From NCBI GenBank assembly GCA_035248585.1, contig DATFHJ010000107.1, positions 2,523 through 66,522 of the forward strand: a stretch of DNA of 64,000 bases, read 5' to 3'. Under the pieces are notes generated by a model. It did not search any database, was not told the origin of the DNA, and worked only from the letters and a program-made list of their open reading frames with translations. This document shows positions 31,926 through 56,756 of the stretch, piece after piece; position 1 is the stretch's first letter; each line of letters begins with the position of its first letter. Both the position numbers and the translations under genes were made by a program. This stretch comes from Thermoanaerobaculia bacterium. GTDB lineage: Bacteria > Acidobacteriota > Thermoanaerobaculia > Gp7-AA8.

Positions 31926-31981
31926 GGAGCGGCGGGCTTTAGCCCGCCGAGGGGAAACGGCGGGCTGAAGCCCGCCGCTCC
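31926..31981. repeat. Family A double-hairpin palindromic element, intergenic copy
   Basis: GGAGCGGCGGGCTTTAGCCCGCC-GAGGGGAAAC-GGCGGGCTGAAGCCCGCCGCTCC. It differs from the other copies only in the loops and spacer. Confidence 0.85.
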
Positions 31982-43980: not shown

Positions 43981-44020
43981 CGTGGTCGAGAGGTTGCAAT
44001 GCAGGGGCCCTGGAGGAACT

Positions 44021-44353
44021 ATGGCTACGCAGAGAACATCCACTACACGCAAGCGCGCCGCGAGCAGCAGCGGGCGTACGTTGCGGAACGTTGTGACGAC
44101 GGCGGCGGCGACGGAGACGCTGGTCGATCTCGTCGATCGGCTGGGCCTCGTCGACCTCGCGCTCGGACATGTGAAAGCACGCATCGAAGAAACCGACATC
44201 GACGAGCTCTTCGACGACGTCGCCAACTATCTGAAGCGCAATCCGGAAGTGCTGGTCGTTTCGCTCGGCGCGTTGACCGTGGCGACGGGGCTGCTCGTGT
44301 TCATGAACGCCCGGCGCGAGTGGGACGGCGCGGAGAGGCGCAAGGCTAGCTGA
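44021..44353 (+). CDS. Hypothetical small protein (110 aa) with a C-terminal TM segment
   Basis: GGAGG lies 6 nt upstream of the ATG at 44021. Codons are GC3-rich, with hydrophobic LVVSLGALTVATGLLVF near the C-terminus. No motif recognised. Confidence 0.45.
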   Translation: MATQRTSTTRKRAASSSGRTLRNVVTTAAATETLVDLVDRLGLVDLALGHVKARIEETDIDELFDDVANYLKRNPEVLVVSLGALTVATGLLVFMNARREWDGAERRKAS

Positions 44354-45518
44354 CGAAGTGCGGCGTCTCGGCGCCGGCGGTCATCGGCTCGAAGACGTCG
44401 AGCCGGATGCGCCGCTCGCGTACCGGCAGGCGCGGGCCTTCGGGCACGAGCGCCGGCGAGACGTCGATGCCAACGGTCTTCCACGCCGCGAGCACGGCTT
44501 CCTGCGGCGCGCTGCCGGCGCCGAAGAGCGCGCCCGCGGCGCGCCAGGTCGCGTCGGCGCAATGACGGAACTGTGCGCGCGGACCGAGGTCCCGCGTAAG
44601 CGCGTGGTACCAGATGCGGCCCGCGGTCTCCCACGCCCGTCCGCCGAGGAGCGTGGCCGTGAGGTAGAAGGCGTGATTGGGGATGCCGCAGTTGACGTGC
44701 ACTCCGCGGTCGTCGCCGGCGGTGCGGACGTAGCCGCGCATGTGATCGGGCTGCGGATCGGTGCCGAGGACGGGATCGTCGTACGCGGTGCCGGGCGCTT
44801 TCAGCGAGCGAATGCCGTCGCCGTTCACGCGATTCGTGAAGAGCCCGGCGCCGACGATCCAATCCGCGCGCGCGGCGCTCTGGCGCGACCAGTACTGCTT
44901 CGCGAGCACGCCGAAGACGTCGGAGAAATGTTCGGCGAGCGCGCCGGCCTGCCCGCTGTACGCGAAGCCGGCGGTGTATTGGGAGACGCCGTGCGTGAGC
45001 TCGTGCGCGATGATGTCGAGCGCGCTGGTGAACGAACGGAAGTACTTGCCGTCGCCGTCGCCGTAGATCATCTGCCGCCCGTTCCAATGCGCGTTGTTGA
45101 ACCCGTCGCCGAAGTGGACGGAGGAATCGATGCGCAGCGCGTGATCGTCGACGGAGCGGCGGCCGTAGACGCGGCGGAAGAAATCGTACGTGCGGCCGGC
45201 GCCGTCGTAGGCCTCGTTCACGGCCGTATCGCGCGTCCGCGGCGCGCCTTCGCCGCGGGCAATGACGCCCGGTAAATCGCGGTCGTGTCGGGCGTCGTAG
45301 ACCGTGCGCCGTTTGCGGAGCGGCGGAAGAATCACGGGACCGGCGATCATCACCAGCGCGGCGCGCTCGGTGCGCGGCTGCAGCGACCATTCGAGCGCAG
45401 CGATCGCGCGGCGGCGATCGTCGTCATCGCCGCGCTCGGCCAGAGTCTGCAGCATGTGCGGGGGCACGATGCTGCACAACGCACCGCGGTGGGGTTTCAT
45501 GCTCGGGATGCGAGGCAT
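44346..45518 (-). CDS. M4 (thermolysin-family) metalloprotease of the protealysin-like subgroup
   Basis: IIAHELTHGV (HExxH), AGALAEHFSD and GVHVNCGIPNHAFY are present. The short N-terminal propeptide carries CSIVPPHML, typical of protealysin-like enzymes. Confidence 0.85.
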   Translation of the reverse strand: MPRIPSMKPHRGALCSIVPPHMLQTLAERGDDDDRRRAIAALEWSLQPRTERAALVMIAGPVILPPLRKRRTVYDARHDRDLPGVIARGEGAPRTRDTAVNEAYDGAGRTYDFFRRVYGRRSVDDHALRIDSSVHFGDGFNNAHWNGRQMIYGDGDGKYFRSFTSALDIIAHELTHGVSQYTAGFAYSGQAGALAEHFSDVFGVLAKQYWSRQSAARADWIVGAGLFTNRVNGDGIRSLKAPGTAYDDPVLGTDPQPDHMRGYVRTAGDDRGVHVNCGIPNHAFYLTATLLGGRAWETAGRIWYHALTRDLGPRAQFRHCADATWRAAGALFGAGSAPQEAVLAAWKTVGIDVSPALVPEGPRLPVRERRIRLDVFEPMTAGAETPHFVS

Positions 45519-45641: not shown

Positions 45642-47849
45642 TCAAGGCTCGATCGTCACATCCACCGCCGCGGTCTTGTAGTGCGTGTCGCAGTGATTGG
45701 AGTAATGCAGCTCGAGGCGCACTTTGCCGGGCTGGCTGATGGTGTCGGTGAACGTGGCGGTGCATTGGCCGTTCGTGCAGCCGTTCAACGTGACGTTGCC
45801 GGTGCGGTCGGCGATCACGCTCCAGCCTTCGACATTGCCGAGGGTGAAGCGCACCTTCACGGACGTATTCGTTTTCATCGTCGGCGAGTCGGCGCGGTAG
45901 TCGGTGACGCTCGACGGCGCCATGCAGAGCACCGTCTCGTACGAATTCGACGACGAGCAGGCGCCGTCGGCGTACATCGTTGTGGCCTGCACCTTCACAT
46001 CTCCCGCCTGCGGCACGCTGTACGTGATCGCGGATGTGCCTTGCCCGCTGAGCACCTGTCCGGCGGGAAGCACTTCCCACACGAGCTGCGCGCCGGGAGG
46101 GACGTAGCTGAGCGCGGCCTGCCCGATCGCGTTCGCGCAGACGACGCGCTGGGTCTTCGACGTATCGATCCGCGCCGGCGGACGATAGCTGCTGACGGTG
46201 GTGCGCACCGGCACGAGCGCCTCACATTGGCCGGTGGCCGCACGCGCGATCTCGTACGTCTTCGTATCGCCCACCTGCAGCGACGTGTCGTAGCGTCCGT
46301 GGATCGGAATGTCGCTCGACGTCACGACGCCGTCCGACCACCACACCTTGTACGGCGGCTGATGCATGTTCGAGTCGAACACCACCGTCACCGTCGGACC
46401 GACTTCCGGCCGCGGCGCAGAGTACTGACAGTAGCGGTCGACCATGCGCGCGACCGGCGCCGGCTGCAGGATCTGCACGGTCTCGCTCACGGCGTCGTTC
46501 GTCGGGCAGCGCGAGTCGCGCAGCACTTCGAGCTGATAGGAGCCGACGGCGGGATTGTCGATCGTGAGCTGCGACTCGCCGGTCGTGAACCACTCGCCGC
46601 CGCGCCACTTGCCGGTGAACGGCGCCTGTCCGGTGAACTTCGCCACGACCTTCGCGTTCGTGCACTTGCCGCCGGCGGTCTCGAGCTTCACGCCGGGAAG
46701 ATAGCGCTCGTACGGCACCGCGCCCGTGACCGTGCCGGGGCACGCGTCGTCGCTGAAGTCGTACAGCGTGTACGTCCCGGCCTTCGTCACCTCGCGCGTC
46801 AGCGTGTCGGCGGACGAGGTGAACGGCGTGCCGCTGTCGCTCCAGCGCGCGCGGAACGGCGCGCGTCCGGTGAACGTGACCTTGAGCGTGGCGCGATCGC
46901 AAGTCTGCTCGACGAGCTCCACTTTCGCGCTCGGCGTCACCGGACAGGCCTCGGAGCGCGGTCTCACGCCGACACTCGCCGTCGACTCGGCGAAGCACGC
47001 CGGCTCGCGCTCGACGCGCACCGTCAGCTTGACCGTGCCTTCCTGATCGGCGCGCAATCGAACGCGATCGCCTTCGGCGAAGAGAATCGTCGCGCCGGTG
47101 GCGCTCCAGTGCGCGGTCTCGCCCGAGCCGAGGATCGTTGAGGCGTCGAACGTCATCCCGGCGAACGTCGACGTGGGCGCGTTGATGCGCGGGCGCGCGA
47201 CGAGGCAGCCGCGCACTTCGACGCTCACGCTCGCGCGCGCGTCGGGACACGCGGTCGCGCCGACCGTGCTCCGTCCCGCGGAGCGGCGCTTGCCGCCGGT
47301 GGCAGGCTGCGTGGCCGCGGCGGCGGTCGCGTAGCTCGCGAACAAATCGATCGTCTTCACGCCGCTGCTCTGCGGCGTGAACGTGTAGCTGCGCTCCGAC
47401 GCGGAGAGCACGACCGGCTCCGGCAATCCATCGCCGCTCAATACCTGCGACGCCGGCGGAGTCGTGCCGCCGTAGCTCCACGTCAGCGTGACCGGCGCGT
47501 TTTGATCGACCGAGGCCGGCGCGCTTATCGAGGCGATGACGAGCGGATCGCGCACGCTGATGATGCCGGTGACGACGCTCGTGCAGTCGTGCGTGGTGAT
47601 CGTACAGGTCAGCGATGCCTGCGCCGCATTCGTGAGCGCGATCTCGACGCGCGGCGTGCCCGCGCCGGCGGTGATCGTGCCGCCCGCGACGGTCCAGCTG
47701 TAAATCGCGTCCGCGAGCTCCGGCACGGCGGCCGTGGCCTTGCCGTTCCTGCACGCGAAGAGCGGCGCCGACATCGTCTTCGGGCAGTCGTTCGCCGCGG
47801 CCAGCGGATGCGCGAGAAGCAACGCGCACAAAAGGAGCGAAGTCTTCAA
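45642..47849 (-). CDS. Secreted Cys-patterned Ig-like repeat protein, paralogue 1 of 3 (735 aa)
   Basis: The TTG at 47849 overlaps the upstream stop (TTGA) and gives (M)KTSLLLCALLLAHPLAAA. It is colinear with paralogue 2. Repeated modules include FTG(R/Q)APF..(R/K)W..G..FT and LSGQGTSAITY. Confidence 0.75.
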   Translation of the reverse strand: MKTSLLLCALLLAHPLAAANDCPKTMSAPLFACRNGKATAAVPELADAIYSWTVAGGTITAGAGTPRVEIALTNAAQASLTCTITTHDCTSVVTGIISVRDPLVIASISAPASVDQNAPVTLTWSYGGTTPPASQVLSGDGLPEPVVLSASERSYTFTPQSSGVKTIDLFASYATAAAATQPATGGKRRSAGRSTVGATACPDARASVSVEVRGCLVARPRINAPTSTFAGMTFDASTILGSGETAHWSATGATILFAEGDRVRLRADQEGTVKLTVRVEREPACFAESTASVGVRPRSEACPVTPSAKVELVEQTCDRATLKVTFTGRAPFRARWSDSGTPFTSSADTLTREVTKAGTYTLYDFSDDACPGTVTGAVPYERYLPGVKLETAGGKCTNAKVVAKFTGQAPFTGKWRGGEWFTTGESQLTIDNPAVGSYQLEVLRDSRCPTNDAVSETVQILQPAPVARMVDRYCQYSAPRPEVGPTVTVVFDSNMHQPPYKVWWSDGVVTSSDIPIHGRYDTSLQVGDTKTYEIARAATGQCEALVPVRTTVSSYRPPARIDTSKTQRVVCANAIGQAALSYVPPGAQLVWEVLPAGQVLSGQGTSAITYSVPQAGDVKVQATTMYADGACSSSNSYETVLCMAPSSVTDYRADSPTMKTNTSVKVRFTLGNVEGWSVIADRTGNVTLNGCTNGQCTATFTDTISQPGKVRLELHYSNHCDTHYKTAAVDVTIEP

Positions 47850-50077
47850 GGCGTCACCGTGAATGAGACTGACGCGGGCGGCGGATTTCCGTTGCAGTGT
47901 CCGCCGTAGAAGATCTGCACCGTGACATTGCCCGGGCCGTGCGTGTCTTTGAACGGGAACGAGCAGACGCCCTGGAGGTTGCAGCCGCCGTGGATCATGT
48001 CGATGTCGCTGTCGCGCGCGGGGTCGGTCGTTTCCAGCGAAAAGAACTCGACGTCGCCGGCGAGCGTGAACTTGATCGTGGTCTGCCCGCCGGCCGGGAT
48101 CGACGCCGGCTCGGCGACGACGTTCGTCACTTGCGGCGGAACCGCGACGTAAACGCCGATGCTGTCGGTTCGCGCTTCGGAACAATAGCCGTCGGGGAAC
48201 GTGGCCTGCACCGCGACGCGCGCGGTCCAGCCGGGCTGCGTCGCTTTCACCGTGATCTCGCGCGTGCCCTGCCCGCTGAGGATCTCCGCGTTCGTCGCCG
48301 ACCACGTCAGGATCGTGTCGGGATGCAGCGGCGCGTTCGCCTGCAACGCCACCTTCATCGTTCCGTTCACGCAGGTCGTGACATCGGTGCTGTCGATCCG
48401 CGGCGCGGGCCGATACGTGAGGTTCACGACTTTGTCTTTCACGACCGCTTCGCAGCTCGCGTCCCACGCGCGCGCGATCTCGATCGTGTCATCCCACTTC
48501 GTGCTGAGGAAATCGCGCAGGACGAACGGCCAGCCGCGCTGCGTCTGCGTCGACACCACGCCGTCCGACCATTGCACCGACCACGGTTCCCGATCGCTGG
48601 TGAAATTCACTCTCGCGTAGCCGGGCGTCGAGGAGATGCAGACCGGGCCCGGATCCATCCAGGTCTCCGGATGCGCGCGGAGGTAGATCGTGTTCGACGT
48701 CACGCCTTCGCCGCCGTCCGGACAGTACGCGTCCGTCAGATGCTCGACGAAGATCGACGACCAGCCGATCGGCACGTCCATGGTGAGCGTGGAGTCGTTC
48801 GTGTCGAACCATTCACCCGGCAGCCAGCGTCCGCGGAACGGCGGCTTGCCGGTGAAATGCGCCGTCACGGTCGCGCCTTCGCAGGCGTCGTTCGTGGTGA
48901 GGACGACGGTCGGGTTGAAGGCGTCGACGTGCGCGGTGCTCGTCACTTCGCCGGGGCATTGCGCGTCGCTGAAGCCGAGGATCGTGAAGTCGCCGGTGCT
49001 CGTGATCTCGCGCGTGAGCGTCGTGTCGAAGGTGGTGAACGTCTTGCCGTCGGACCACGTGCCGCGGAACGGCGGCGCGCCGCTGAAACTCGCCTGTACC
49101 GTCGCGCTCTTGCATCCGCGTCCGACGAGCGACACGTTCGCCTTCGGCGGATTCGTCGTACAGGCCTGCCGCGGTCGCACGCGCAAGGTCGAATGCGATT
49201 CGACCGAGCAGCTGTTCGCGCGCGCGACGGTGACGCCGAGTTGCAGCTCGGTGACGAGATCGTCGGGGACGACTTCGACCTCCGCGCTCTCCGCGCCGTT
49301 GACAATGGTTCCGCCGGTGACCGACCACGAGGCGCTCTCGCCCGCGTCGAGCGTGACGTGCGCGGAGAAGGCGACGCCGCTCTCCACGTCACTCGCGGCG
49401 TGAATCGTCGGCCCGACTGCATTGCAGCGCACGTTGAGCTGTTTCGTCGCGTGCACTTCCGCGCAGTTCGCGGCCGTGACGAGCGTGGAGCCGGCCGCGC
49501 GGCGGCGGCCGCCTTTCGGCTGCGGGACCGTCGCGATGACGGGCGCATGCGAGGCGATCAGCTCGACCGTGCGCGTGCCGCCCGCGTTCGGCGTGAACGT
49601 GTATTTGCGTTGATCCGCCGGAACGCTGACCGGCGCCGGGAAGAGATCTCCGGTGAGCACCTGCGACGCCGGCTGGCTGCCGGCCGCGTAGGTCCATTCG
49701 ATCGTGACGCTCGATCCCGCCTCAACGGATGCCGGCGCTTTCAGCTCAACGATCGACAGCGGCTTGCGCACGTTGATGATGCCGCTCGCGGTGCGGCTGC
49801 ACGAGCCGCTGCTGACGATGACGCTGAGCCGCGCGACCGAGGACGATGCGTCGCCGAGAGTAACGGTGACGCGCGAAGTGCCCTGGCCGCCGGTGATCGT
49901 CGCCGACTCCGCCGTCCACGCATACGTCGCGCCTTCGACGGGATTCACGGACGCGGTGGCGGTGCCGCGCTCGCACGCGTAGAGCGGGACCGACATCGGC
50001 AGCGGCTCGCAGGCGGCATTGGCGACGAGCGGAACCGACGCATAAAGAAAGGACACGACTGCCAGAAAGATGCGCAT
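47846..50077 (-). CDS. Secreted Cys-patterned Ig-like repeat protein, paralogue 2 of 3 (743 aa)
   Basis: Signal peptide MRIFLAVVSFLYASVPLVANA. Modules include SFSGAPPFRGTWSDGKTFTT, HFTGKPPFRGRWLPGEWFDT and ILSGQGTREITV. Confidence 0.8.
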   Translation of the reverse strand: MRIFLAVVSFLYASVPLVANAACEPLPMSVPLYACERGTATASVNPVEGATYAWTAESATITGGQGTSRVTVTLGDASSSVARLSVIVSSGSCSRTASGIINVRKPLSIVELKAPASVEAGSSVTIEWTYAAGSQPASQVLTGDLFPAPVSVPADQRKYTFTPNAGGTRTVELIASHAPVIATVPQPKGGRRRAAGSTLVTAANCAEVHATKQLNVRCNAVGPTIHAASDVESGVAFSAHVTLDAGESASWSVTGGTIVNGAESAEVEVVPDDLVTELQLGVTVARANSCSVESHSTLRVRPRQACTTNPPKANVSLVGRGCKSATVQASFSGAPPFRGTWSDGKTFTTFDTTLTREITSTGDFTILGFSDAQCPGEVTSTAHVDAFNPTVVLTTNDACEGATVTAHFTGKPPFRGRWLPGEWFDTNDSTLTMDVPIGWSSIFVEHLTDAYCPDGGEGVTSNTIYLRAHPETWMDPGPVCISSTPGYARVNFTSDREPWSVQWSDGVVSTQTQRGWPFVLRDFLSTKWDDTIEIARAWDASCEAVVKDKVVNLTYRPAPRIDSTDVTTCVNGTMKVALQANAPLHPDTILTWSATNAEILSGQGTREITVKATQPGWTARVAVQATFPDGYCSEARTDSIGVYVAVPPQVTNVVAEPASIPAGGQTTIKFTLAGDVEFFSLETTDPARDSDIDMIHGGCNLQGVCSFPFKDTHGPGNVTVQIFYGGHCNGNPPPASVSFTVTP

Positions 50078-50139
50078 AGGGGAAGGGACCTTGCGGCCAT
50101 CGTGTCATGCGATGGCCGCAAAGTCCAGCCTAACAACGG

Positions 50140-53100
50140 CTAAGGATTCGCCGGAGCGATCGTGATCGTGGCGGTCGATTCGACGGACTGTCCGCACAAG
50201 GTCGTGCCGTACGCGCGGATCGTCGACGTGCCGGGACCGTTCTCCGAAACGTACCGGAGCATGAACGTCTGACCATTCGAGTCGACCGGGTACAGCGGAT
50301 CGCCGTTCGACGTCTCCCAGCTCAGCGACTCGTAGGACGAGGCGTCGAACGTGATCGTGACGTCCGTGCCGTCGCCGGCCGTGATCGTATCGGAGGCGAG
50401 CGCGATCGCCGGATTCGCCGCGGGTCCGGGCACGAAGATGCCGGACGATCCCGTGACGTTGCTCTCGCAGCCGTCGGCGGTGCGATAGAACGCGCTCAGG
50501 GCGATCCCGCCCGGCTCCGTGGCTTCCACCACCAGCGCGCTCGTCCCCTGTCCGCTGACGATGCGGCCGCTCGTGCCCTGCAGGCTCCAGAGGATTTCCG
50601 CGCCCGCGGGCGCCCCCTCGGCGGTCACGGTCGTCGTCGCGCCGGGACAGAGGAGGTACGTCGTGTTGATGGAGAGCAACGGCAGGACCGGCGTTTCGAC
50701 ATAGATTTCGTTGCTGAAGCTCGTCAGGCCCGTGGCGTCGGTGAGCCGCAGCCGGAGGTAGCGGGTGTTGCGCACGAAATGCGTGACGGTCGTGTCGCTG
50801 GTGGTGAACGTCTCGCCGGTGTCGCTCCAGGCGCCGGTGAACGGGGCCACGCCGCGGAGCGTGGCTGTGACGGTGGCGCCGCACATCGCGCCGGGTGTCG
50901 AGGTGAGCGTCGCGGTCGGCGGCACGGGGAAGACCGTCATCACGGCCGTCGCCTCGAACGGCGCTCCGCACGTGGTCGTGCCGTAGATGCGCACCGTCGA
51001 GTCGCCCGGGCCGTGCGAGCTCGTGTAGCGTACGAGGTAGAAGGTCGGCGTGATCTGGCTGACGATCTCCATCGCGTCGCCGAGGGAATTCTCGAACGCC
51101 CACGTTTCGGTGTTGGGATCGAGGCTCACATAGATCTCGGTCGACGAGCCGGAGTAGACCCCGTACAGCTGGAAGTTCGGCTGCTGCACCGAGTCGATGA
51201 CGTCGAAGAACCAGAAGCCGTCGGGGCTGCAGCTCTCGGGAGTGGTGAAGTACGCGGTGACGTTCGCATCGACGCCGTCGAGCTGCACCTGGACGCTGTC
51301 CGTGCCCTGGCCGGAGAGGATCGTGGCGTTCCAGGTCATCCACGTGATCGCCGCACCCGGAATCGGATTCGCGATCGTGGCCGTGACGACGCTGTTCGGG
51401 CAGGCCGGACTCTGGCTGGAGATCTGCGGCCGGGGCAGCGGCGCGTAGTCGTACGTGGCGGAGCCGTTGATCGAGCCGGCGCCGTTGGCGTCGCTGAACT
51501 CGGTCAGCGTGTACGTGCCGGGCGCGGTGGGATAGAGGAACGCATACGAGTCCCATCCGAAGAAACTCTCGCCCGTGCTCCAGCGCCCGCTGAACGGCGG
51601 CGTGCCGGTGAATTCGGCGAAGACCGCGTTGTCGCGGCAGCTCGAGCCGATGAGGCGCACGTTCGCCCGCGCGATCACCGGGATGCTGGCGTCGATCGTG
51701 AGCGTCGCCGTCACGGTCGCCGGCTGACTGCAGGCGTTCGAGGATTCCGCGGTGATCGTGGCGACGCCGGGGCCGCTGCTGGAGCGGTACTCGTAACGCG
51801 TGACCGTGCCGTCGTCGTCGAGGAACTGCAATGTGTCGAAGGGCAGCGAGGAGTAGACGCCGCTCGAGCGGCCGTAAGGATTGAGTCGCGTGACGCTGAC
51901 GACGGCAGTTCCGCCGGGACCGATCGTCGCCGGCTCGACGGAGACGCTGATCTCCGGCGTACCGAGAGTCGTAATGTACGGGATCGAGCCGGGCTGCGAG
52001 GTGCAGCCGTCGGTGATGTTGCGCAGCACGGCGGTGAGCGGCGACGGACCGGGGGCGGCTCCGCTGAACTGCACGGCCGGCGTGCCCTGTCCCGAAAGGA
52101 TCGTGCCGTTCTGGATGCTCCAGACCACTTCATAGCCCGCCGGCACCGGCGTGAGCACCTGCGCGCCGCGCACGAGGCCGGGGCAGGTGTCGTATCCGTA
52201 ATATCCGCCTTCAGCGATCGGATCGACGTCGATGAACGGAACCGGCGGCGCGGCGCTCACGGTCGCGCTGCCGCTCGACGTGCCGACGCAGTTCGCATCG
52301 CGGAAGAACGTGATGCGGTACGTGCCGGCGCGCGTCACGCTGCGCTCGATGTGCGGATCGTTCGTGACGAACGTGACGCCGTCGCTCCAGCGTCCCTGGA
52401 ACGGCGCGGTGCCGGTGAAATCGGCGGCGACGATGCCGGTGCCGCACGACCCGCTCACTTTGCTCACGACCGCCGCCGCGTTGCACGGCGTGATCGTGTA
52501 CGAGCGGCTGAACGTCTTCGAGCAGGCGCCATTCGTCAGCGCGACGTTGATCGTGAACGAGCCGCTCGCCGGCGCGAGGACCACGATGAACGCCGGCGTG
52601 GTCTGCAGCACGATCGCGCCGCTGGCGGTGAACGTCGCCGTCTCGTTCGGATTGGGATTCATGAGAGTGAGGCGGAACGTGGTGTTCGGCACCGGCTGCG
52701 CGGGACTGCTCTGCAGCACCGGCTCGGCGATGGAGCACGGTTGCACGATCGCCACCGCCGCGCCGGTCGAGACCTCGCACGAGCTCCCGCGCGAGACGAA
52801 AACCTCGATGCCTACGCTGCCCGAGGCGCCGGCCACGATCTGGATCGCCGCGCCGCTGGTCGCGGACGGAGCACCGTTCGTGACCACCCAGCGAGCGGTG
52901 TGACCGGGCTCCAGCTCGATCGAGGCGTTGATCGTTTCCCCCGGCGCAACCGTGGTCTTGTCGACGGTCAGAAACGGAGTGACGACATTGCACTGCTTCA
53001 CGTGGTACTTCCGCGTGAGGCTGAACGTGCCGCACTCCGTCACCACGGTGAGCGTCACATGCTTCTCCCCCGGCAGTTTCGGCACGTAGGAGTAGCTGAG

Positions 53101-53322
53101 CTGATTCGGCGGGAGCGTCACCGGCTCGGCGAAATCATGGCCGGCGATCGTCTGCGACAGCGGAACGATGCCGCCGAGAGACCAGGTCATGGCGACCGCC
53201 TCTCCCGTCTGCGCATCGGAAGCCGAGAACGATTGGATGGGATCGGAGCACTTCGGCGCGGCGAATGCGGGAAGACACAACAAACAGAGGAGCAACGCAA
53301 CAACCGTGGGGCGGACTCTCAT
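50140..53322 (-). CDS. Secreted Cys-patterned Ig-like repeat protein, paralogue 3 of 3 (1060 aa)
   Basis: Signal peptide MRVRPTVVALLLCLLCLPAFA. Modules include DFTGTAPFQGRWSDGVTFVT, EFTGTPPFSGRWSTGESFF and LRGVAPFTGAWSDTGETFTT, plus three ILSGQGT/IVSGQGT blocks. Confidence 0.8.
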   Translation of the reverse strand: MRVRPTVVALLLCLLCLPAFAAPKCSDPIQSFSASDAQTGEAVAMTWSLGGIVPLSQTIAGHDFAEPVTLPPNQLSYSYVPKLPGEKHVTLTVVTECGTFSLTRKYHVKQCNVVTPFLTVDKTTVAPGETINASIELEPGHTARWVVTNGAPSATSGAAIQIVAGASGSVGIEVFVSRGSSCEVSTGAAVAIVQPCSIAEPVLQSSPAQPVPNTTFRLTLMNPNPNETATFTASGAIVLQTTPAFIVVLAPASGSFTINVALTNGACSKTFSRSYTITPCNAAAVVSKVSGSCGTGIVAADFTGTAPFQGRWSDGVTFVTNDPHIERSVTRAGTYRITFFRDANCVGTSSGSATVSAAPPVPFIDVDPIAEGGYYGYDTCPGLVRGAQVLTPVPAGYEVVWSIQNGTILSGQGTPAVQFSGAAPGPSPLTAVLRNITDGCTSQPGSIPYITTLGTPEISVSVEPATIGPGGTAVVSVTRLNPYGRSSGVYSSLPFDTLQFLDDDGTVTRYEYRSSSGPGVATITAESSNACSQPATVTATLTIDASIPVIARANVRLIGSSCRDNAVFAEFTGTPPFSGRWSTGESFFGWDSYAFLYPTAPGTYTLTEFSDANGAGSINGSATYDYAPLPRPQISSQSPACPNSVVTATIANPIPGAAITWMTWNATILSGQGTDSVQVQLDGVDANVTAYFTTPESCSPDGFWFFDVIDSVQQPNFQLYGVYSGSSTEIYVSLDPNTETWAFENSLGDAMEIVSQITPTFYLVRYTSSHGPGDSTVRIYGTTTCGAPFEATAVMTVFPVPPTATLTSTPGAMCGATVTATLRGVAPFTGAWSDTGETFTTSDTTVTHFVRNTRYLRLRLTDATGLTSFSNEIYVETPVLPLLSINTTYLLCPGATTTVTAEGAPAGAEILWSLQGTSGRIVSGQGTSALVVEATEPGGIALSAFYRTADGCESNVTGSSGIFVPGPAANPAIALASDTITAGDGTDVTITFDASSYESLSWETSNGDPLYPVDSNGQTFMLRYVSENGPGTSTIRAYGTTLCGQSVESTATITIAPANP

Positions 53323-53492
53323 GCTTCACCTCAATGTTATTTGGCGATATGGGTTATACGCATATTACAGATAATTATTTGAATGTACAGCTGGCAGTAA
53401 TGGAAGATTTATGAAGTTCCACCATCCGGTTGCGCCGCGTGCAAAGCGGGAGTAGCGTTCGAGCCATCTTTGAAACGTCTGCGGAGGTCACC

Positions 53493-56400
53493 ATGAAACG
53501 GCAATGGCTGTTCTGGGCTGTGATCCTTCTCCTCTCGCTCCCCGTACTCGCGCAGTCGATCCCCACGTCCACGATCAGCGGCAAAGTCACGGCGGACGGC
53601 AACCCCCTGCCCGGCGTCACCGTCAGCGCGAGCTCCCCGAATCTGCAGGGGATACGCACCGCGGTAACGAGCGAGGCCGGCGACTATCTGATCCCGCTGC
53701 TCCCGCCGGGGAGCTACACGATCCAGTACGAGCTCGCCGGCATGCAGACGATGACGAAGAAACCGGTGCTCGCCGCCGGCCTCACGGAGCGTATCGACGT
53801 CGACTTGCGTCCCGCGGCGGTGGCGGAAGCCATCACCGTCACGGCGGACTCGCCGATGACCGCGGCCGTCGAGTCGACGCAGGTGAGCACGAACTTCAAC
53901 CAGGAGCTGATCGAGCAGCTGCCGGTGGCGCGCACGCTGGCGGGGATCACGCTCCTCGCACCGGGCGTGAACAGCAACGGGCCGGGCAACAACATCATCA
54001 TCTCCGGCGCGATGTCGTTCGACAGCCTCTATCTCGTCAACGGCGTGATCGTGAACGAGAACCTCCGCGGGCAGCCGCACAACCTCTTCATCGAAGACGC
54101 GATCCAGGAGACGACGGTGCTGACCGGCGGCATCTCCGCGGAGTTCGGCCACTTCACCGGCGGCGTGGTCAACACGTTGACGAAATCGGGCGGCAACCAG
54201 TTCAGCGGCAGCCTCCGCTCCACGCTGAACAACGAGGAGTGGGTGGCGAAGACGCCGCTCACGACCGACCAGGCCGACAAGATCAACTCCGTCTACGAAG
54301 GAACCCTCGGCGGGCCGGTCTTCCGCGACCGGCTCTGGTTCTTCGGCGCGGGCCGTCTCGCCGAGACCTCCGACATCCGCCAGACGGTTCTCGGCCTCTC
54401 CCGGCAGGGCGACCAGGACGCGAACGGCGTGCAGATCCCGATCGGCGCGCAGCTCGCGCCCGTCACCTATCCGCACGGCACCGACGAAACGCGGCTCGAA
54501 GGAAAGATCACCGGCTCGCTGACCGCGAAGCACACCGTCATCGGCTCGTTCCTCGACGTCGACGCGAGCGAGACGAATCAGACCGGCCAGGTGATCATGG
54601 ACCTCGACAGTCTCGTGGAAGAGCGCGAGACGCCGAACTCGCTCTTCGCGCTGAACTACAACGGCGTCTTCACCGACCGCTTCTTCGTCGAGGCGCAGTA
54701 TTCGAAGAAGGACTTCAAATTCGTCGGCAGCGGCTCGCCGTTCTACGACAACATCAAGGGCACGCTCATCACCGACCGCGCCCGCGCGACGCGCTACTGG
54801 TCGCCGACGTTCCGGGCCACGCCGGAAGGCGAAGAGCGCGACATCCGCGTCTACACCGCGAAGGGCACGTACTTTCTCTCCACGCCGCGCTTCGGCAGTC
54901 ACGAGGTGGCGGCCGGCTACGAGGACTTCAACGAAGTGCGCGCGGTGAACAACTATCAGAACGGCAGCGACTACCGCATCAGCGTGGCCAGCACGATCGT
55001 CCGCAACGGCGTGATCTATCCGCGCATGCCGGGCGGCACGGGCGGCCTGACGCGCATCAGCTGGCTCCCGATCTTCGTGCTCAGCGAGGGCTCCGACTAC
55101 ACCACGCGCTCCGTCTATCTGAACGACCGCTGGACGCTGAACAATCACTGGTCGTTCAACGCCGGCGTGCGCTACGACAAGAACGACACGATCAGCGGCG
55201 CCGGCACGTTCCAGATCGCCGATGACTCGTCGATCAACCCGCGTCTCGCCGCGCACTACGACCTCTTCGCGAACGGGAAGATCATCTTCAACGCCAGCTA
55301 CGGCACGTATGTCGGACGCCTCTCCGAGGGCGCGGCCAACGACGCCGATCCCGCGGGCCGCAACGCGTCGCTGCAGTGGAACTACATGGGGCCGAACATC
55401 AACAACGACGTGAATGCGCCGACCAGCTCCCTGATCGGAACGGAGGAGGCGATCCGCCGGGTGATGGACTGGTTCTTCCAGAACGGCGGCACCGGCCGCC
55501 GCCCGTTCCGTACCACGCCGAGCGTTCCGGGCGTGGAGAGCATTCTCGACGTCGACGGGCTGAAGTCGCCGATGGTGAAGGAGTACACGATCGGCGTCGG
55601 CAGCGCGATGGGCTCGCGCGGCTACGCCCGCGCCGACGTGATCTACCGCAACTGGGACAACTTCTATACGTCGTTCCGCGACCTGGCCACGGGCCAGGTC
55701 ACCGACACGCGGTTCGGCACCGGCGCGACGTACGACCTCTCGATCATCCGCAGCGACAGCGAGATCTACGACCGCGAGTACACGGCGGTGCAGACGCAGT
55801 TCAACTACCGGCTGCTCGAGCGTCTGCGCGTCGGCGGCACGTACACGTGGTCGCGCCTCGTCGGCAACGTCACCGGCGAAGACACGGGCAGCGGCCCGCT
55901 CGTCGGCATCGCCGGCGAATATCCGGAGTATCGCCGCGAGAGCTGGAACTATCCGACCGGATATCTGACCGGCGATCAGCGCCATCGCCTGCGGCTGTGG
56001 GCCGGCTACGACGTGCCGACCTCGTTCGGCGCATTCAACATCTCGCTGCTCCAGCACTTCGACTCCGGCACGCGCACGTCGATCGACGCCGACATCGACT
56101 CGCGTCCATACGTGACGAATCCCGGATACCTCACGCCGCCCGGCACGGTGACGTACTTTTTCGGCGGACGCGGGGCGATCAAGGCGGGCAACATCACCCG
56201 CACGGATCTGGCGATCAACTACAAGCTCGGCCTCGTGCGCGGCATCGAGCTGTTCATCCAGCCCGAGGTGATCAATCTCTTCAACGAGCAGGGCGTGCAG
56301 ACGTTCAACGAAGAAGTGCTGACCGCGGTCGACTGCGCGCCGCAGACCACCGGCAACCTCGCCGCGCCGTGTCCGGCGAAAGGCCTGCAGCCGTTCAACC

Positions 56401-56525
56401 CGTTCACCGAGAAGCCGGTGGAAGGCGTGAACTACATCAAGGGTCCGAACTTCGGGAAGGCTGACAGCGAAGCGGACTATCAAACGCCGAGGACGTTCCG
56501 CGTCTCGGTGGGACTGCGGTTCTGA
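53493..56525 (+). CDS. TonB-dependent receptor with an N-terminal carboxypeptidase-regulatory-like (CarboxypepD_reg) domain
   Basis: GGAGG lies upstream of the ATG at 53493, with signal peptide MKRQWLFWAVILLLSLPVLAQS. This is followed by ISGKVTADGNPLPGVTVSASSP...GDYLIPLLPPGSYTI, a plug region, and a barrel ending TPRTFRVSVGLRF. Confidence 0.9.
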   Translation: MKRQWLFWAVILLLSLPVLAQSIPTSTISGKVTADGNPLPGVTVSASSPNLQGIRTAVTSEAGDYLIPLLPPGSYTIQYELAGMQTMTKKPVLAAGLTERIDVDLRPAAVAEAITVTADSPMTAAVESTQVSTNFNQELIEQLPVARTLAGITLLAPGVNSNGPGNNIIISGAMSFDSLYLVNGVIVNENLRGQPHNLFIEDAIQETTVLTGGISAEFGHFTGGVVNTLTKSGGNQFSGSLRSTLNNEEWVAKTPLTTDQADKINSVYEGTLGGPVFRDRLWFFGAGRLAETSDIRQTVLGLSRQGDQDANGVQIPIGAQLAPVTYPHGTDETRLEGKITGSLTAKHTVIGSFLDVDASETNQTGQVIMDLDSLVEERETPNSLFALNYNGVFTDRFFVEAQYSKKDFKFVGSGSPFYDNIKGTLITDRARATRYWSPTFRATPEGEERDIRVYTAKGTYFLSTPRFGSHEVAAGYEDFNEVRAVNNYQNGSDYRISVASTIVRNGVIYPRMPGGTGGLTRISWLPIFVLSEGSDYTTRSVYLNDRWTLNNHWSFNAGVRYDKNDTISGAGTFQIADDSSINPRLAAHYDLFANGKIIFNASYGTYVGRLSEGAANDADPAGRNASLQWNYMGPNINNDVNAPTSSLIGTEEAIRRVMDWFFQNGGTGRRPFRTTPSVPGVESILDVDGLKSPMVKEYTIGVGSAMGSRGYARADVIYRNWDNFYTSFRDLATGQVTDTRFGTGATYDLSIIRSDSEIYDREYTAVQTQFNYRLLERLRVGGTYTWSRLVGNVTGEDTGSGPLVGIAGEYPEYRRESWNYPTGYLTGDQRHRLRLWAGYDVPTSFGAFNISLLQHFDSGTRTSIDADIDSRPYVTNPGYLTPPGTVTYFFGGRGAIKAGNITRTDLAINYKLGLVRGIELFIQPEVINLFNEQGVQTFNEEVLTAVDCAPQTTGNLAAPCPAKGLQPFNPFTEKPVEGVNYIKGPNFGKADSEADYQTPRTFRVSVGLRF

Positions 56526-56551
56526 GGCGAGGTGTTATACTCCGCGGGCTT

Positions 56552-56617
56552 ATGAACCGAACGACGGGCACCGGACAGACGCGAACGACGAGCACCACGC
56601 TCGCGCCCTGTCGATGA
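56552..56617 (+). promoter_or_regulatory. Candidate thrS leader peptide ORF, MNRTTGTGQTRTTSTTLAPCR (8 Thr codons in 21)
   Basis: ATG at 56552 and TGA at 56615-56617. Its 3' end contains GCCCTGTC (56605-56612), identical to the 3' arm of the downstream terminator and complementary to its 5' arm. Confidence 0.45.
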
Positions 56618-56649
56618 TCGTCTACTGAGACAGTCAGAAAGATCAACGA

Positions 56650-56678
56650 GACAGGGCTTCGGCCCTGTCTTTTGTTTT
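56650..56678 (+). terminator. Intrinsic terminator/attenuator hairpin upstream of thrS
   Basis: GACAGGGC-TTCG-GCCCTGTC is followed by TTTTGTTTT. Confidence 0.7.
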
Positions 56679-56680
56679 AT

Positions 56681-56733
56681 GGAGCGGCGGGCTTCAGCCC
56701 GCCGGATGCCGGCGGGCTAAAGCCCGCCGCTCC
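56681..56733. repeat. Family A double-hairpin palindromic element, intergenic copy directly upstream of thrS
   Basis: GGAGCGGCGGGCTTCAGCCCGCC-GGATGCC-GGCGGGCTAAAGCCCGCCGCTCC. Confidence 0.85.
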
Positions 56734-56756
56734 ACACAAGCGATGCGAGGTTTCTC

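What the first reader, a model, noticed from the sequence alone, without database searches (positions are those of the whole stretch)
45642..53322. Three tandem paralogous secreted proteins built from an unassigned Cys-framed repeat module, divergent from a TonB-dependent receptor
Three co-directional genes (1060, 743 and 735 aa) each begin with a signal peptide. Paralogues 1 and 2 are colinear along their whole length, for example CPKTMSAPLFACRNGKATAAV against CEPLPMSVPLYACERGTATASV, and PATGGKRRSAG against PKGGRRRAAG. All three reuse two modules. The first is C-x-A-x-V-x-A-x-F-(T/S)-G-x-(A/P)-P-F-x-G-x-W-S-D-G-x-x-F-T...G-x-Y-x-(L/I)-x-x-F-(S/R)-D-A-x-C-P-G, seen at least 7 times. The second is (I/V)-(L/V/T)-(S/G)-G-Q-G-T-x-x-(I/V)-x-(V/Y). 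The logic of the first module (a G-x-x-P-aromatic-x-x-x-W block, then an aromatic-rich strand ending D-A-x-C) recalls SprB-type or other Ig-like adhesin repeats, but I cannot assign it to a named family. There is no catalytic motif and no recognisable anchor or sorting signal. Genes 1 and 2 overlap (TTGA). A 12-bp-stem hairpin (50091-50121) lies between genes 2 and 3. The cluster is transcribed divergently from the CarboxypepD_reg-type TonB-dependent receptor across the most AT-rich ~170 bp of the window (53323-53492). One possibility is a surface ligand-capture module partnered with the receptor, but this is speculative.
Basis: partly seen in the sequence, partly recalled or inferred. Interest (0 to 1): 0.7.

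Follow-up and report, generated by a model that had tools for sequence, protein, structure and literature searches.

The report
Three secreted Ig-repeat stalk proteins
Three neighbouring genes of an uncultured Acidobacteriota (Thermoanaerobaculia) bacterium encode exported rod-like proteins built only from known immunoglobulin-like "stalk" domains, and the TonB-dependent receptor next to them is a recent insertion, not a partner, so the finding is largely ordinary.

Summary
Three co-directional minus-strand genes (A 50140-53322, B 47846-50077, C 45642-47849) encode Sec-signal-bearing, all-beta, Cys-containing paralogues that reuse two modules.

The modules are not unassigned. Module 1 is a divergent Pom152-type Ig-like repeat (Pfam PF24312). 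A profile of the nine window copies finds 3,355 protein clusters, mostly giant Bacteroidota "gliding motility-associated-like" proteins, and also hits yeast Pom152. Module 2 is PKD_6 (PF19408), a family built as a fibrillar-adhesin stalk domain. AlphaFold gives B as eight Ig-like beads plus one disordered linker. The best PDB matches are the Ig repeats of the GhpA grappling hook.

The proposed receptor partnership fails. In 10 of 10 thrS-anchored relatives the receptor gene is absent. The AT-rich region is gene A's own conserved upstream region.

What is conserved is a frame: thrS, then a variable set of A- or B-family genes, then a leaderless protealysin-like M4 protease (8 of 10 relatives).

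My best reading is that these are exported, stalk-only, adhesin-like proteins of unknown ligand.

Features that remain unexplained:
- A conserved R-R-R-(A/S)-x-G hinge in the B family.
- Fast, phylogenetically incongruent divergence of gene A.

Seen in passing: a Thr-rich leader-peptide attenuator upstream of thrS.

The parts
50140..53322 (-). Gene A, 1060 aa. Architecture: signal peptide, Ig (D2-type), PKD-like (D3-type), one unassigned beta domain, then three copies of the triad [Pom152-type Ig, PKD_6, D8-type Ig].
   Evidence: ORF and translation. Domain map by profiles built from the B family. 100% identical to NCBI 'MAG TPA: hypothetical protein VKB93_06765 [Thermoanaerobaculia bacterium]'.
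47846..50077 (-). Gene B, 743 aa. Architecture: signal peptide, PKD_6, Ig, disordered hinge, PKD-like, Pom152-type Ig x3 (third copy degenerate), PKD_6, C-terminal Ig.
   Evidence: AlphaFold2 model with mean pLDDT 84, all-beta, eight domains, residues 184-204 disordered.
45642..47849 (-). Gene C, 735 aa, with the same architecture as B. Its TTG start overlaps the B stop (TTGA), which suggests translational coupling.
   Evidence: 37.6% identity to B over the full length. PF24312 at 37.4 bits and PF19408 at 29.2 bits.
48917..49153 (-). Module 1 (Pom152-type Ig-like repeat), B copy 1. This copy was used as the representative for the single-domain model. The other copies are at B 48686-48922 and 48413-48661 (degenerate); C 46704-46940, 46467-46703 and 46176-46424 (degenerate); A 52249-52485, 51442-51678 and 50680-50916.
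   Evidence: Coordinates and alignment A1. Single-domain model with pLDDT 95.9 and an Ig-like sandwich fold. The profile finds 3,355 clusters.
49766..50014 (-). Module 2 (PKD_6 domain carrying the xGQGT signature), B copy 1. The other copies are at B 48137-48400; C 47550-47789 and 45915-46172; A 51973-52215, 51208-51435 and 50413-50685.
   Evidence: Six of 10 PKD-like pieces match PF19408 individually, with a best E-value of 2.5e-8.
49490..49513 (-). Conserved multibasic hinge motif GGRRRAAG of B (residues 189-196), inside the disordered linker 184-204. The equivalent motif in C is GGKRRSAG at 47274-47297.
   Evidence: pLDDT is below 50 for residues 184-204. R193 is invariant in alignment A2. 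Of 38 B-family proteins, 33 carry a run of two or more basic residues and the other 5 carry an RxR(A/S/P) variant. The motif is absent from the 6 A-family proteins, where the two flanking domains abut directly.
50086..50126 (-). 17-bp stem-loop between the A stop and the B start. It has no U-tract and its base ends 8 nt before the B ATG, where a Shine-Dalgarno sequence would normally sit.
   Evidence: z = -5.1. Conserved in the closest relative L004 and absent from L001, where B still carries an N-terminal domain.
53323..53413 (-). The upstream region of gene A itself (35% GC), with a GAGG Shine-Dalgarno sequence 5-6 nt before the ATG and a weak TGTACA-N16-TAATAT promoter-like pair.
   Evidence: Conserved nearly base for base in L004, which has no receptor gene. 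GC content. The promoter reading is my inference: the consensus scan did not flag it, because it matches only 8 of 12 positions.
53414..56525 (+). TonB-dependent receptor gene (ATG at 53494) plus about 80 bp of its own upstream sequence. This is a lineage-specific insertion between the thrS leader and the A promoter. It is listed for context and is not part of the system.
   Evidence: Pfam domains. Absent from L001-L006 and L033-L036. No tblastn hit at E <= 1e-3 in any of the 31 related loci then held, L001-L031.
44346..45518 (-). Protealysin-like M4 metalloprotease gene with no signal peptide. It is co-directional, lies 123 bp downstream of C, and is the conserved distal boundary of the cassette.
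   Evidence: Peptidase_M4, Peptidase_M4_C and PLN_propep hits. Present in the locus, downstream of the Ig gene(s), in 8 of 10 thrS-anchored relatives; it is the next gene in six of them, while other genes intervene in L035 and L036.

Best explanation
Genes A, B and C encode Sec-exported, rod-like 'beads-on-a-string' proteins. They are made entirely of Ig-like stalk domains: PKD_6, Pom152-type Ig, and three further Ig-like domain types that Pfam does not cover. Conserved Cys pairs are likely to stabilise the domains.

They form a Thermoanaerobaculia/Acidobacteriota-specific pair of families. The B/C type has 8 domains and the A type about 12. Both are built from the same domain vocabulary by tandem duplication and domain shuffling. 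The genes sit as a variable cassette between thrS and a protealysin-like M4 protease gene.

The most likely role is extracytoplasmic binding or spacing, that is, stalk-only fibrillar-adhesin-like proteins with an unknown ligand.

Shown here:
- Export signals.
- Domain identities and fold.
- Paralogy.
- Family distribution.
- Synteny.
- Absence of any receptor linkage.

Inferred:
- The final location (cell surface or medium rather than periplasm).
- Disulfide bonding.
- A binding role.
- That the conserved disordered RRR(A/S)xG hinge of B and C is a processing site or a polyanion-binding site.
- That A, B, C and possibly the M4 gene form one transcription unit, modulated by the stem-loop between A and B.

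The TonB-dependent receptor next door is an incidental recent insertion.
For: **Export and lack of enzymatic or anchor features.**
- NCBIfam gives no hit.

**Domain identity.**
- Pfam finds PKD_6 and Ig-like_POM152.
- The module-1 profile hits Pom152 chain 8t9l_B at E = 4.8e-6, with shared FTGxPPF and GxY..DxxCxG motifs.
- The same profile finds 3,355 clusters (882 at E <= 1e-10). Many are 2-7.7 kaa proteins with up to 44 copies.
- Those proteins carry PF24312 at up to E = 5e-106, together with Ig_7/CHU_C-associated and SprB repeats.
- Some are named 'gliding motility-associated-like protein' in Bacteroidota.
- PF19408 was built as a fibrillar-adhesin stalk family (10.1101/2020.12.07.414375).

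**Structure.**
- B has pLDDT 84 and is all-beta, with 8 domains.
- The single module has pLDDT 95.9.
- The top Foldseek hits are the GhpA Ig repeats at E = 2e-22, followed by contactin, DSCAM and titin.
- Invariant Cys columns occur in every domain of the B family.

**Shared vocabulary.** A, B and C use the same domain types.

**Synteny.**
- The frame thrS | variable A/B genes | M4 is seen.
- The receptor is absent everywhere.

**Selection.** A shows dN/dS 0.60 against 0.11-0.23 for its neighbours. A is also closer to the more distant genome. Both are consistent with an exposed protein that undergoes recombination.
Against: - No adhesive ('tip') domain and no anchor was found: no lipobox, PEP-CTERM, T9SS C-terminal domain or LPxTG. 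Surface exposure is therefore unproven. By default, a protein with only a signal-peptidase-I signal in a diderm would be periplasmic.
- No ligand, expression or localisation data exist, because the organism is an uncultured MAG.
- A and B score below the Pfam gathering threshold for PF24312. Their membership rests on profile transitivity.
- The fold matches are generic Ig-like matches. The best single-domain E-value is only 0.02.
Confidence: 0.6

Rival explanations
1. The Ig-repeat proteins work together with the adjacent leaderless protealysin-like M4 metalloprotease. They could be its substrates or pro-forms, cut in the conserved multibasic hinge, or they could act as an extracellular carrier, tether or regulator of the protease.
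For: - The M4 gene lies downstream of the Ig gene(s), on the same strand as the Ig gene looked up, in the window and in 8 of 10 thrS-anchored relatives. This holds although the number and type of Ig genes between thrS and M4 varies from 1 to 3, with either A or B last, and ThrRS identity falls to 65%.
- Where it is the next gene, the gap is short (about 57-150 bp).
- No terminator-like site lies between C and M4 in the window.
- The hinge is disordered and strongly conserved.
Against: - The protease has no signal peptide (read directly from the sequence), and protealysin is described as intracellular (PMC9505478). The Ig proteins are Sec-exported.
- L001 and L005 lack an adjacent M4 gene. In L035 and L036 other genes intervene.
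- More distant B-like genes (27-28% identity; L007, L009, L020) have no M4 gene within the held flanking DNA, which reaches 10 kb only where the contig allows.
- All positive cases share thrS synteny, so inheritance of gene order alone could explain the pattern.
- A-family proteins lack the hinge yet also sit next to M4.
- Thermolysin-type enzymes prefer a hydrophobic P1' residue, not a multibasic site (established knowledge of family M4).
Confidence: 0.2
2. One reading: the three proteins are a surface ligand-capture module that feeds the divergently transcribed TonB-dependent receptor, analogous to SusC/SusD-type or receptor/lipoprotein pairs.
For: In this window alone the genes are adjacent and divergent, across a shared AT-rich spacer.
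Against: - The receptor is absent from all 10 thrS-anchored relatives, including L004 (ThrRS 96%, B 90% identical). There the thrS leader directly abuts A's upstream region.
- There is no receptor homologue at E <= 1e-3 in any of the 31 related loci held at that point, L001-L031, and none among the Pfam-annotated genes of L033-L036.
- The AT-rich region 53323-53413 is conserved without the receptor, so it belongs to A.
- Other lineages have different insertions at the same spot, such as OmpW and a Calx-beta protein.
- There is no lipobox.
Confidence: 0.04
3. The proteins are alpha-2-macroglobulin-like protease traps, in which the disordered basic hinge acts as a bait region.
For: - Foldseek lists bacterial and animal A2M/complement macroglobulin domains at E around 1e-10 to 1e-13.
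- A disordered conserved hinge is present.
- A protease gene is adjacent.
Against: - There is no CxEQ thioester motif.
- There is no helical thioester domain. The model is all-beta apart from two 5-6-residue helices.
- There is no lipobox.
- The macroglobulin-domain hits are generic Ig-like matches, far weaker than the GhpA and contactin hits.
- The Pfam A2M hit has E = 0.068, below threshold.
Confidence: 0.03

Closest known systems
Ig-like repeats of giant Bacteroidota surface fibres: GhpA grappling-hook protein (PDB 9fly, 9flp, 9fls and others) and SprB-type 'gliding motility-associated' proteins
   Same: - They share the Ig-like repeat type. They give the best Foldseek matches for both the full-length model (E = 2e-22) and the single module (20-23% identity).
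- The module-1 profile retrieves these giant proteins as its top hits, and they carry PF24312, Ig_7 and SprB domains.
- They are Sec-exported, contain Cys and are beads-on-a-string in architecture. GhpA has intramolecular disulfides between Ig domains (10.1101/2024.01.29.577165).
   Different: - The window proteins are 5 to 8 times shorter, with 8-12 domains against more than 50.
- They occur in Acidobacteriota, not Bacteroidota.
- They lack a T9SS C-terminal sorting domain, a hook or tip module, and neighbouring PorP/PorE-type anchor genes.
- No evidence of heptamer formation was obtained.
Pom152 luminal Ig-like repeats of the yeast nuclear pore (Pfam PF24312; PDB 8t9l chain B)
   Same: Sequence-level homology of module 1. 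The profile gives E = 4.8e-6 and shows the same FTGxPPF...GxY..(D)xxC(x)G framework in several Pom152 repeats. Pfam itself files C under this family.
   Different: Pom152 is a eukaryotic membrane protein that forms a ring. The window proteins are soluble bacterial exoproteins that mix this repeat with PKD_6 and other Ig types. No functional parallel is implied.
Fibrillar adhesins / FA-like proteins as defined by Monzon et al. (stalk + adhesive + anchor domains); PKD_6 (PF19408) is one of their stalk families
   Same: Tandem stalk-type Ig-like domains, including PKD_6 above the gathering score. The proteins are exported and repetitive.
   Different: No known adhesive domain and no anchor domain was detected. 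They meet only the stalk criterion.
TonB-dependent receptor with a surface-exposed binding partner (SusC/SusD-like and similar pairs)
   Same: Only the adjacency and divergent orientation in this one genome.
   Different: The adjacency is not conserved in any relative. There is no lipoprotein signal and no SusD-like fold.

Membership tests
Pfam PF24312 Ig-like_POM152 (module 1) | Whole-protein HMM score at or above the gathering score (27 bits) | tested here: inconclusive
   C scores 37.4 bits (met). A scores 19 bits and B 19.4 bits (not met). Scanned singly, 2 of 9 copies reach E <= 0.01, with a best value of 7.4e-8.
Pfam PF24312 Ig-like_POM152 (module 1) | Homology to Pom152 repeats and to accepted family members, shown by an independent profile | tested here: met
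   The profile of the 9 window copies hits yeast Pom152 (8t9l_B) at E = 4.8e-6 with motif-level agreement. Its top database hits score up to 347.7 bits (E = 5e-106) on PF24312.
Pfam PF24312 Ig-like_POM152 (module 1) | Ig-like beta-sandwich fold | tested here: met
   The single-module AlphaFold2 model has pLDDT 95.9 and pTM 0.81, with 8 strands. Its Foldseek neighbours are GhpA repeats and I-set Ig domains.
Pfam PF19408 PKD_6 (module 2) | HMM score at or above the gathering score (25 bits) | tested here: met
   B scores 51.5 bits and C 29.2 bits. A scores 15.2 bits at whole-protein level. Six of 10 PKD-like pieces match individually, the best at 34.6 bits.
Fibrillar adhesin (stalk + adhesive domain + surface anchor) | Tandem stalk domains | tested here: met
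   There are 8 (B, C) to about 12 (A) consecutive Ig-like domains.
Fibrillar adhesin (stalk + adhesive domain + surface anchor) | A recognised adhesive (ligand-binding) domain | tested here: not met
   No such Pfam or NCBIfam hit at E <= 1. Every modelled domain is a plain Ig-like sandwich.
Fibrillar adhesin (stalk + adhesive domain + surface anchor) | A cell-surface anchor (LPxTG, lipobox, PEP-CTERM, T9SS C-terminal domain, autotransporter barrel) | tested here: not met
   No motif and no hydrophobic tail was found. The C-termini end in a beta-strand plus Pro. No family hit was found.
SprB / T9SS-secreted gliding adhesins | C-terminal T9SS sorting domain and a Bacteroidota host with T9SS | tested here: not met
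   No C-terminal-domain family was detected in Pfam or NCBIfam. The host is a Thermoanaerobaculia/Acidobacteriota MAG. The SprB repeat PF13573 matches only 1 of 9 copies, at E = 0.0016.
TonB-dependent receptor / surface binding-protein pair | Conserved adjacency of the binding-protein genes and the receptor gene across relatives | tested here: not met
   Zero of 10 thrS-anchored relatives have it. There is no receptor homologue in any of the 31 loci L001-L031 and none among the Pfam-annotated genes of L033-L036.
Alpha-2-macroglobulin-type protease trap | Thioester (CxEQ) motif in a helical thioester domain | tested here: not met
   No CxEQ motif. The model is all-beta.
Operon partner of the protealysin-like M4 protease | Co-transcription and a functional interaction with the protease | not testable with these tools
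   Only synteny is available: the M4 gene lies in the locus in 8 of 10 relatives, on the same strand as the Ig gene looked up, with short gaps where it is the next gene. There are no expression or interaction data.

The most novel reading that the evidence does not exclude
The thrS-to-M4 interval of Thermoanaerobaculia may be a dedicated, rapidly turning-over cassette site for stalk-only Ig-repeat exoproteins that work with the leaderless protealysin-like protease. The B-type proteins would be matured at, or tethered through, their universally conserved disordered RRR(A/S)xG hinge. The fast-evolving, recombining A-type protein would provide variable surface specificity. That would be a new secreted Ig-protein/protease system with no described counterpart.
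Probability: 0.12. Interest if true: 0.55.

Novelty: new member of a known kind. Interest (0 to 1): 0.25.

Why it matters
**As it stands.** The result matters mainly as a clean-up.
- An apparently unassigned repeat turns out to be a divergent branch of two existing Pfam Ig-like families.
- An attractive receptor-partner story is shown to be an accident of a recent insertion.

**Useful by-products.**
- It defines two uncharacterised Acidobacteriota protein families: at least 38 B-type and about 50 A-type sequence clusters. Their architecture, conserved hinge motif and conserved genomic frame are now described.
- It shows how deep the Pom152-type Ig repeat reaches into bacteria: 3,355 clusters, with up to 44 copies per protein.

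**If the protease link or hinge processing were real.** It would give a handle on how poorly studied soil Acidobacteriota build or remodel their cell surface.

Tried and rejected
- **NCBIfam.** No hit for A, B or C.
- **Single-module Foldseek against PDB.** Nothing below E = 0.001, so it gives the fold only.
- **Pfam on single module-1 copies.** Only 2 of 9 are detectable. Membership had to be shown through a profile.
- **Literature search for PF24312 / PF19408.** Only the fibrillar-adhesin survey mentions PF19408. A Pom152 / Ig-like / bacterial search gave nothing relevant.
- **Sigma-70 and terminator scan.** No flagged promoter upstream of A and no terminator between the genes. The stem-loop between A and B has no U-tract, so it is not a canonical terminator.
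- **Is the hairpin a dispersed repeat?** No. It has no other copy in the window.
- **Alpha-2-macroglobulin reading.** Rejected, because there is no thioester motif or thioester domain.
- **T9SS/SprB membership.** Rejected, because there is no C-terminal sorting domain and the phylum is wrong.
- **Receptor partnership.** Rejected on synteny.
- **Emfourin-type inhibitor next to the protease.** The neighbouring small genes have no Pfam hit on record. I did not pursue this further.
- **Rfam on the window and on the thrS leader.** Only a tRNA reached the gathering score, and the sub-threshold hits were meaningless.

Full report
**Observation**

They are A at 50140-53322 (1060 aa), B at 47846-50077 (743 aa) and C at 45642-47849 (735 aa, TTG start). 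The gene calls on the public contig are identical.

- The B stop and the C start share TTGA. The same overlap is present in L001; in L004 the tblastn matches of B and C abut at 12217.
- Each product begins with a classical n-h-c signal ending in AxA: AFA|AP, ANA|AC and AAA|ND (read from the sequence). None has a lipobox.
- B and C align end to end at 37.6% identity. A shares 24-30% identity with them in pieces.
- An HMM built from six seed copies of module 1 finds 7 strong copies (E 7e-12 to 7e-32) and 2 degenerate ones.
- The xGQGT signature of module 2 occurs six times.
- The stem-loop between A and B is real. It has 12 perfect pairs, extendable to 17 (50086-50126). The surrounding 86 nt fold at -40.5 kcal/mol with z = -5.1.
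- The spacer towards the receptor is the most AT-rich 170 bp of the window.
- The neighbour is a CarboxypepD_reg / Plug / barrel TonB-dependent receptor.

**What the modules are**

Pfam already covers both modules.

- Module 2 is PKD_6 (PF19408). B scores 51.5 bits and C 29.2 bits against a cut-off of 25. Six of ten PKD-like pieces match on their own.
- PF19408 was one of six families built as "stalk domains" in the fibrillar-adhesin survey (10.1101/2020.12.07.414375).
- Module 1 is a divergent Pom152-type Ig-like repeat (PF24312). C scores 37.4 bits against a cut-off of 27. A and B reach only about 19 bits.

Three independent results close that gap for module 1.

1. A profile of the nine window copies hits yeast Pom152 (8t9l_B) at E = 4.8e-6. 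Several Pom152 repeats share the same FTGxPPF ... GxY..DxxCxG framework.
2. The same profile, run against 1.84 billion cluster representatives, finds 3,355 proteins (882 at E <= 1e-10 and 130 at E <= 1e-30). Many are 2-7.7 kaa proteins with up to 44 copies.
3. Seven of those hits were scanned against Pfam and all matched PF24312, at E = 9e-15 to 5e-106. Most of them also carry Ig_7 (CHU_C-associated), and single ones carry a SprB repeat or an S8 subtilase domain. Where a source names them, they are Bacteroidota "gliding motility-associated-like" proteins.

**Structure**

- AlphaFold2 on B, with its 8 homologues, gives mean pLDDT 84. The model is all-beta apart from two short helices. It has eight Ig-like domains, and the only disordered stretches are the signal peptide and residues 184-204.
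- pTM is low (0.38), as expected for beads on a string.
- The isolated module is an Ig-like sandwich at pLDDT 95.9.
- The best Foldseek matches for the full model are the Ig repeats of the Aureispira grappling-hook protein GhpA (E = 2e-22). Generic multi-Ig proteins (contactin, DSCAM, titin) follow.
- The single module again finds GhpA repeats first (20-23% identity, E about 0.02-0.1).
- GhpA is a Sec/T9SS-exported, disulfide-stabilised fibre of 52 Ig-like repeats.

Profiles of the eight B domains map all three proteins.

| Protein | Domain order |
|---|---|
| B and C | PKD_6, Ig, hinge, PKD-like, Pom152-Ig x3 (third degenerate), PKD_6, C-terminal Ig |
| A | Ig, PKD-like, one unassigned domain, then three copies of [Pom152-Ig, PKD_6, C-terminal-type Ig] |

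- The three genes therefore share one domain vocabulary.
- Invariant Cys columns occur in every B-family domain. This is consistent with extracytoplasmic disulfides, which is an inference.
- There is no HExxH, CxEQ, LPxTG or PEP-CTERM motif and no hydrophobic tail. NCBIfam gives no hit.

**Organism and family size**

- A is 100% identical to a hypothetical protein of a Thermoanaerobaculia MAG.
- The closest species-level genome is an uncultured Acidobacteriota MAG, with B 90% identical.
- The A family has about 50 clusters above 40% identity, all annotated as hypothetical.
- The B family has at least 38 clusters.
- Full-length relatives were seen only in Acidobacteriota. However, the genome scan used a single peptide pattern, so exclusivity is not proven.

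**Genomic context: the receptor is a bystander**

I examined ten relatives anchored on thrS (L001-L006 and L033-L036).

- In every one, the conserved thrS leader (window 56532-56680) abuts the Ig-gene cassette with no receptor gene between them.
- This includes L004, where ThrRS is 96% and B is 90% identical.
- tblastn with the receptor finds nothing at E <= 1e-3 in any of the 31 loci held at that point, L001-L031. None of the Pfam-annotated genes of L033-L036 is a receptor.
- The AT-rich stretch 53323-53413 upstream of A is conserved almost base for base in the receptor-less L004. It is therefore A's own upstream region.
- The receptor, with about 80 bp of its own leader (53414-56525), has been inserted between it and the thrS promoter. 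In L004 a REP-like palindrome sits at that position.
- Other lineages carry other insertions in the same interval, such as an OmpW gene (L035) and a Calx-beta/beta-helix protein gene (L034).

What is conserved is the frame. It runs thrS, then one to three A- and/or B-family genes, then a protealysin-like M4 metalloprotease gene. The M4 gene lies in the locus in the window and in 8 of 10 relatives, on the same strand as the Ig gene looked up. Where it is the next gene, the gap is about 57-150 bp.

| Locus | Ig-family genes between thrS and M4 |
|---|---|
| L002, L006 | one B-type gene |
| L003 | two B-type genes |
| L033, L034 | only an A-type gene |
| L004 and the window | A, B, C |
| L036 | B, B, A, plus three unknown genes |

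**Further features**

1. *A conserved hinge.*
   - The only disordered segment of B carries GGRRRAAG (49490-49513). C has GGKRRSAG.
   - Of 38 B-family proteins, 33 carry a run of two or more basic residues there, and the other five carry an RxR(A/S/P) variant.
   - In the six A-family proteins the two flanking domains abut without any linker.
   - I read the hinge as a processing or polyanion-binding site. This is inference only.
2. *A evolves differently from its neighbours.*
   - Against L004, A has 58% amino-acid identity, dN/dS 0.60 and dS 0.60.
   - ThrRS, B, C and M4 have 88-96% identity, dN/dS 0.11-0.23 and dS 0.23-0.30.
   - A is closer to the more distant L001 (70%).
   - This points to recombination or allele exchange, and/or relaxed or diversifying selection, as is common for exposed proteins.
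3. *B has lost an N-terminal domain.*
   - Most B-family members have a roughly 70-aa N-terminal domain (GLRLxNP..AVDAxVxCG...) after the signal peptide.
   - The B genes of the window and of L004 lack it. They have the 17-bp stem-loop and a new signal peptide there instead.
   - The stem ends 8 nt before the B ATG, and no Shine-Dalgarno sequence is visible. It may therefore modulate B translation or mRNA stability. This is inference.

**Mechanism**

The best-supported reading (confidence about 0.6) is as follows. A, B and C are Sec-exported, probably disulfide-stabilised rods of Ig-like stalk domains. In other words, they are stalk-only, fibrillar-adhesin-like proteins. They act outside the cytoplasm as binding or spacing elements with an unknown ligand. 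They probably form one transcription unit, with B and C translationally coupled.

- Shown: export signals, domain identity, fold, paralogy and synteny.
- Not shown: final location, ligand, disulfides, hinge function and operon structure.

The main rival (confidence about 0.2) is a functional unit with the downstream M4 protease. Its support is synteny that persists despite turnover of the cassette. Several points count against it:

- The protease has no signal peptide, and protealysin is intracellular (PMC9505478).
- Two relatives lack an adjacent M4 gene.
- Distant B-like genes have none nearby.
- All positive cases share ancestry of gene order.

The receptor-partner idea (about 0.04) and an alpha-2-macroglobulin-like trap (about 0.03; no thioester motif or domain) are effectively excluded.

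**Comparison with known systems and novelty**

- The proteins resemble the GhpA/SprB class in repeat type and in beads-on-a-string design. They are not members of it: there is no T9SS sorting domain, the phylum is different, and they are 5-8 times shorter.
- They contain Pom152-type and PKD_6 domains by Pfam criteria. They fulfil only the "stalk" criterion of fibrillar adhesins.
- I file them as new members of a known kind, in two uncharacterised Acidobacteriota families.
- Interest is low to moderate (0.25). The most novel reading not excluded is a dedicated Ig-exoprotein/protealysin cassette with hinge processing (probability about 0.12).

**Side observation**

The spacer that the receptor insertion displaced is a conserved thrS leader. 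It contains these elements:

- A TATACT box at 56536-56541.
- A 21-22-codon leader ORF with 7-9 Thr codons in all seven loci examined. In the window it is 56552-56617 and reads MNRTTGTGQTRTTSTTLAPCR.
- A stop codon lying inside CCCTGTCG, which is a copy of the 3' arm of the terminator hairpin at 56648-56671. That hairpin is followed by a T-run.

The minimum-free-energy fold of the leader forms the predicted antiterminator, pairing CCCUGUC with GACAGGG. No Rfam family matches. This looks like a leader-peptide attenuator controlling a threonyl-tRNA synthetase gene, and it deserves its own follow-up.

Noticed in passing
window 56526-56756 (+); also L001-L006 upstream of thrS: There is a conserved thrS leader. 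It has a TATACT box (56536-56541) and a 21-22-codon Thr-rich leader ORF (56552-56617, MNRTTGTGQTRTTSTTLAPCR; 7-9 Thr codons in all 7 loci). The ORF's stop lies in CCCTGTCG, a copy of the 3' arm of the terminator hairpin at 56648-56671 (GACAGGGCttcgGCCCTGTC followed by a T-run). The MFE fold forms the antiterminator. L006 carries what look like compensatory changes in the terminator stem. This looks like a leader-peptide attenuator for a threonyl-tRNA synthetase gene, and no Rfam family matches it.
   Followed up: partly
window 5636-5691, 31926-31981, 56681-56733: A REP-like palindromic element (GGAGCGGCGGGCT ... AGCCCGCCGCTCC) occurs in three copies. One copy is inserted between the thrS terminator hairpin and the thrS ATG. 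In L004 a copy sits exactly where the window carries the TonB-dependent receptor insertion.
   Followed up: partly
window 53414-56525: The TonB-dependent receptor gene is an insertion specific to this genome, lying between the thrS promoter and gene A's promoter. No paralogue exists elsewhere in the window, and its origin was not traced.
   Followed up: partly
window 50140-53322 compared with L004 6933-9818 and L001 6788-9961: Gene A is phylogenetically incongruent with its neighbours. It is 58% identical to the closest genome (L004) but 70% identical to the more distant L001. Its dS is twice that of the flanking genes, and dN is at or above dS in some 60-aa windows (for example residues 483-543 and 664-723). 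This suggests allele exchange and/or diversifying selection.
   Followed up: partly
window 50020-50139; L001 10001-10262: Most B-family proteins carry a conserved N-terminal domain of about 70 aa (GLRLxNP..AVDAxVxCG...PLxAFET..QR) after the signal peptide. It is missing from the window's B and C and from L004's B. In B it is replaced by the stem-loop and a new signal peptide. The domain has no Pfam match.
   Followed up: partly
window about 44012-44353 (+): A small conserved gene (about 110 aa, with a hydrophobic stretch near the C-terminus and no Pfam hit) converges on the 3' end of the M4 protease gene. A similar small opposite-strand gene follows M4 in L003, L033 and L035, and one lies in L001 where M4 has been lost.
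   Followed up: no
L004 about 9860-9940: A MITE/REP-like inverted repeat (GTCATCCTGAGC...GCTCAGGATGAC) lies between the A stop and the conserved stem-loop in L004. It is absent from the window.
   Followed up: no
P0010 (2322 aa, metagenomic): The top hit of the module-1 profile fuses 15 Pom152-type Ig repeats to an N-terminal S8 subtilase with a fervidolysin-type prodomain and PKD domains. The repeat therefore also serves as a stalk for secreted proteases.
   Followed up: no
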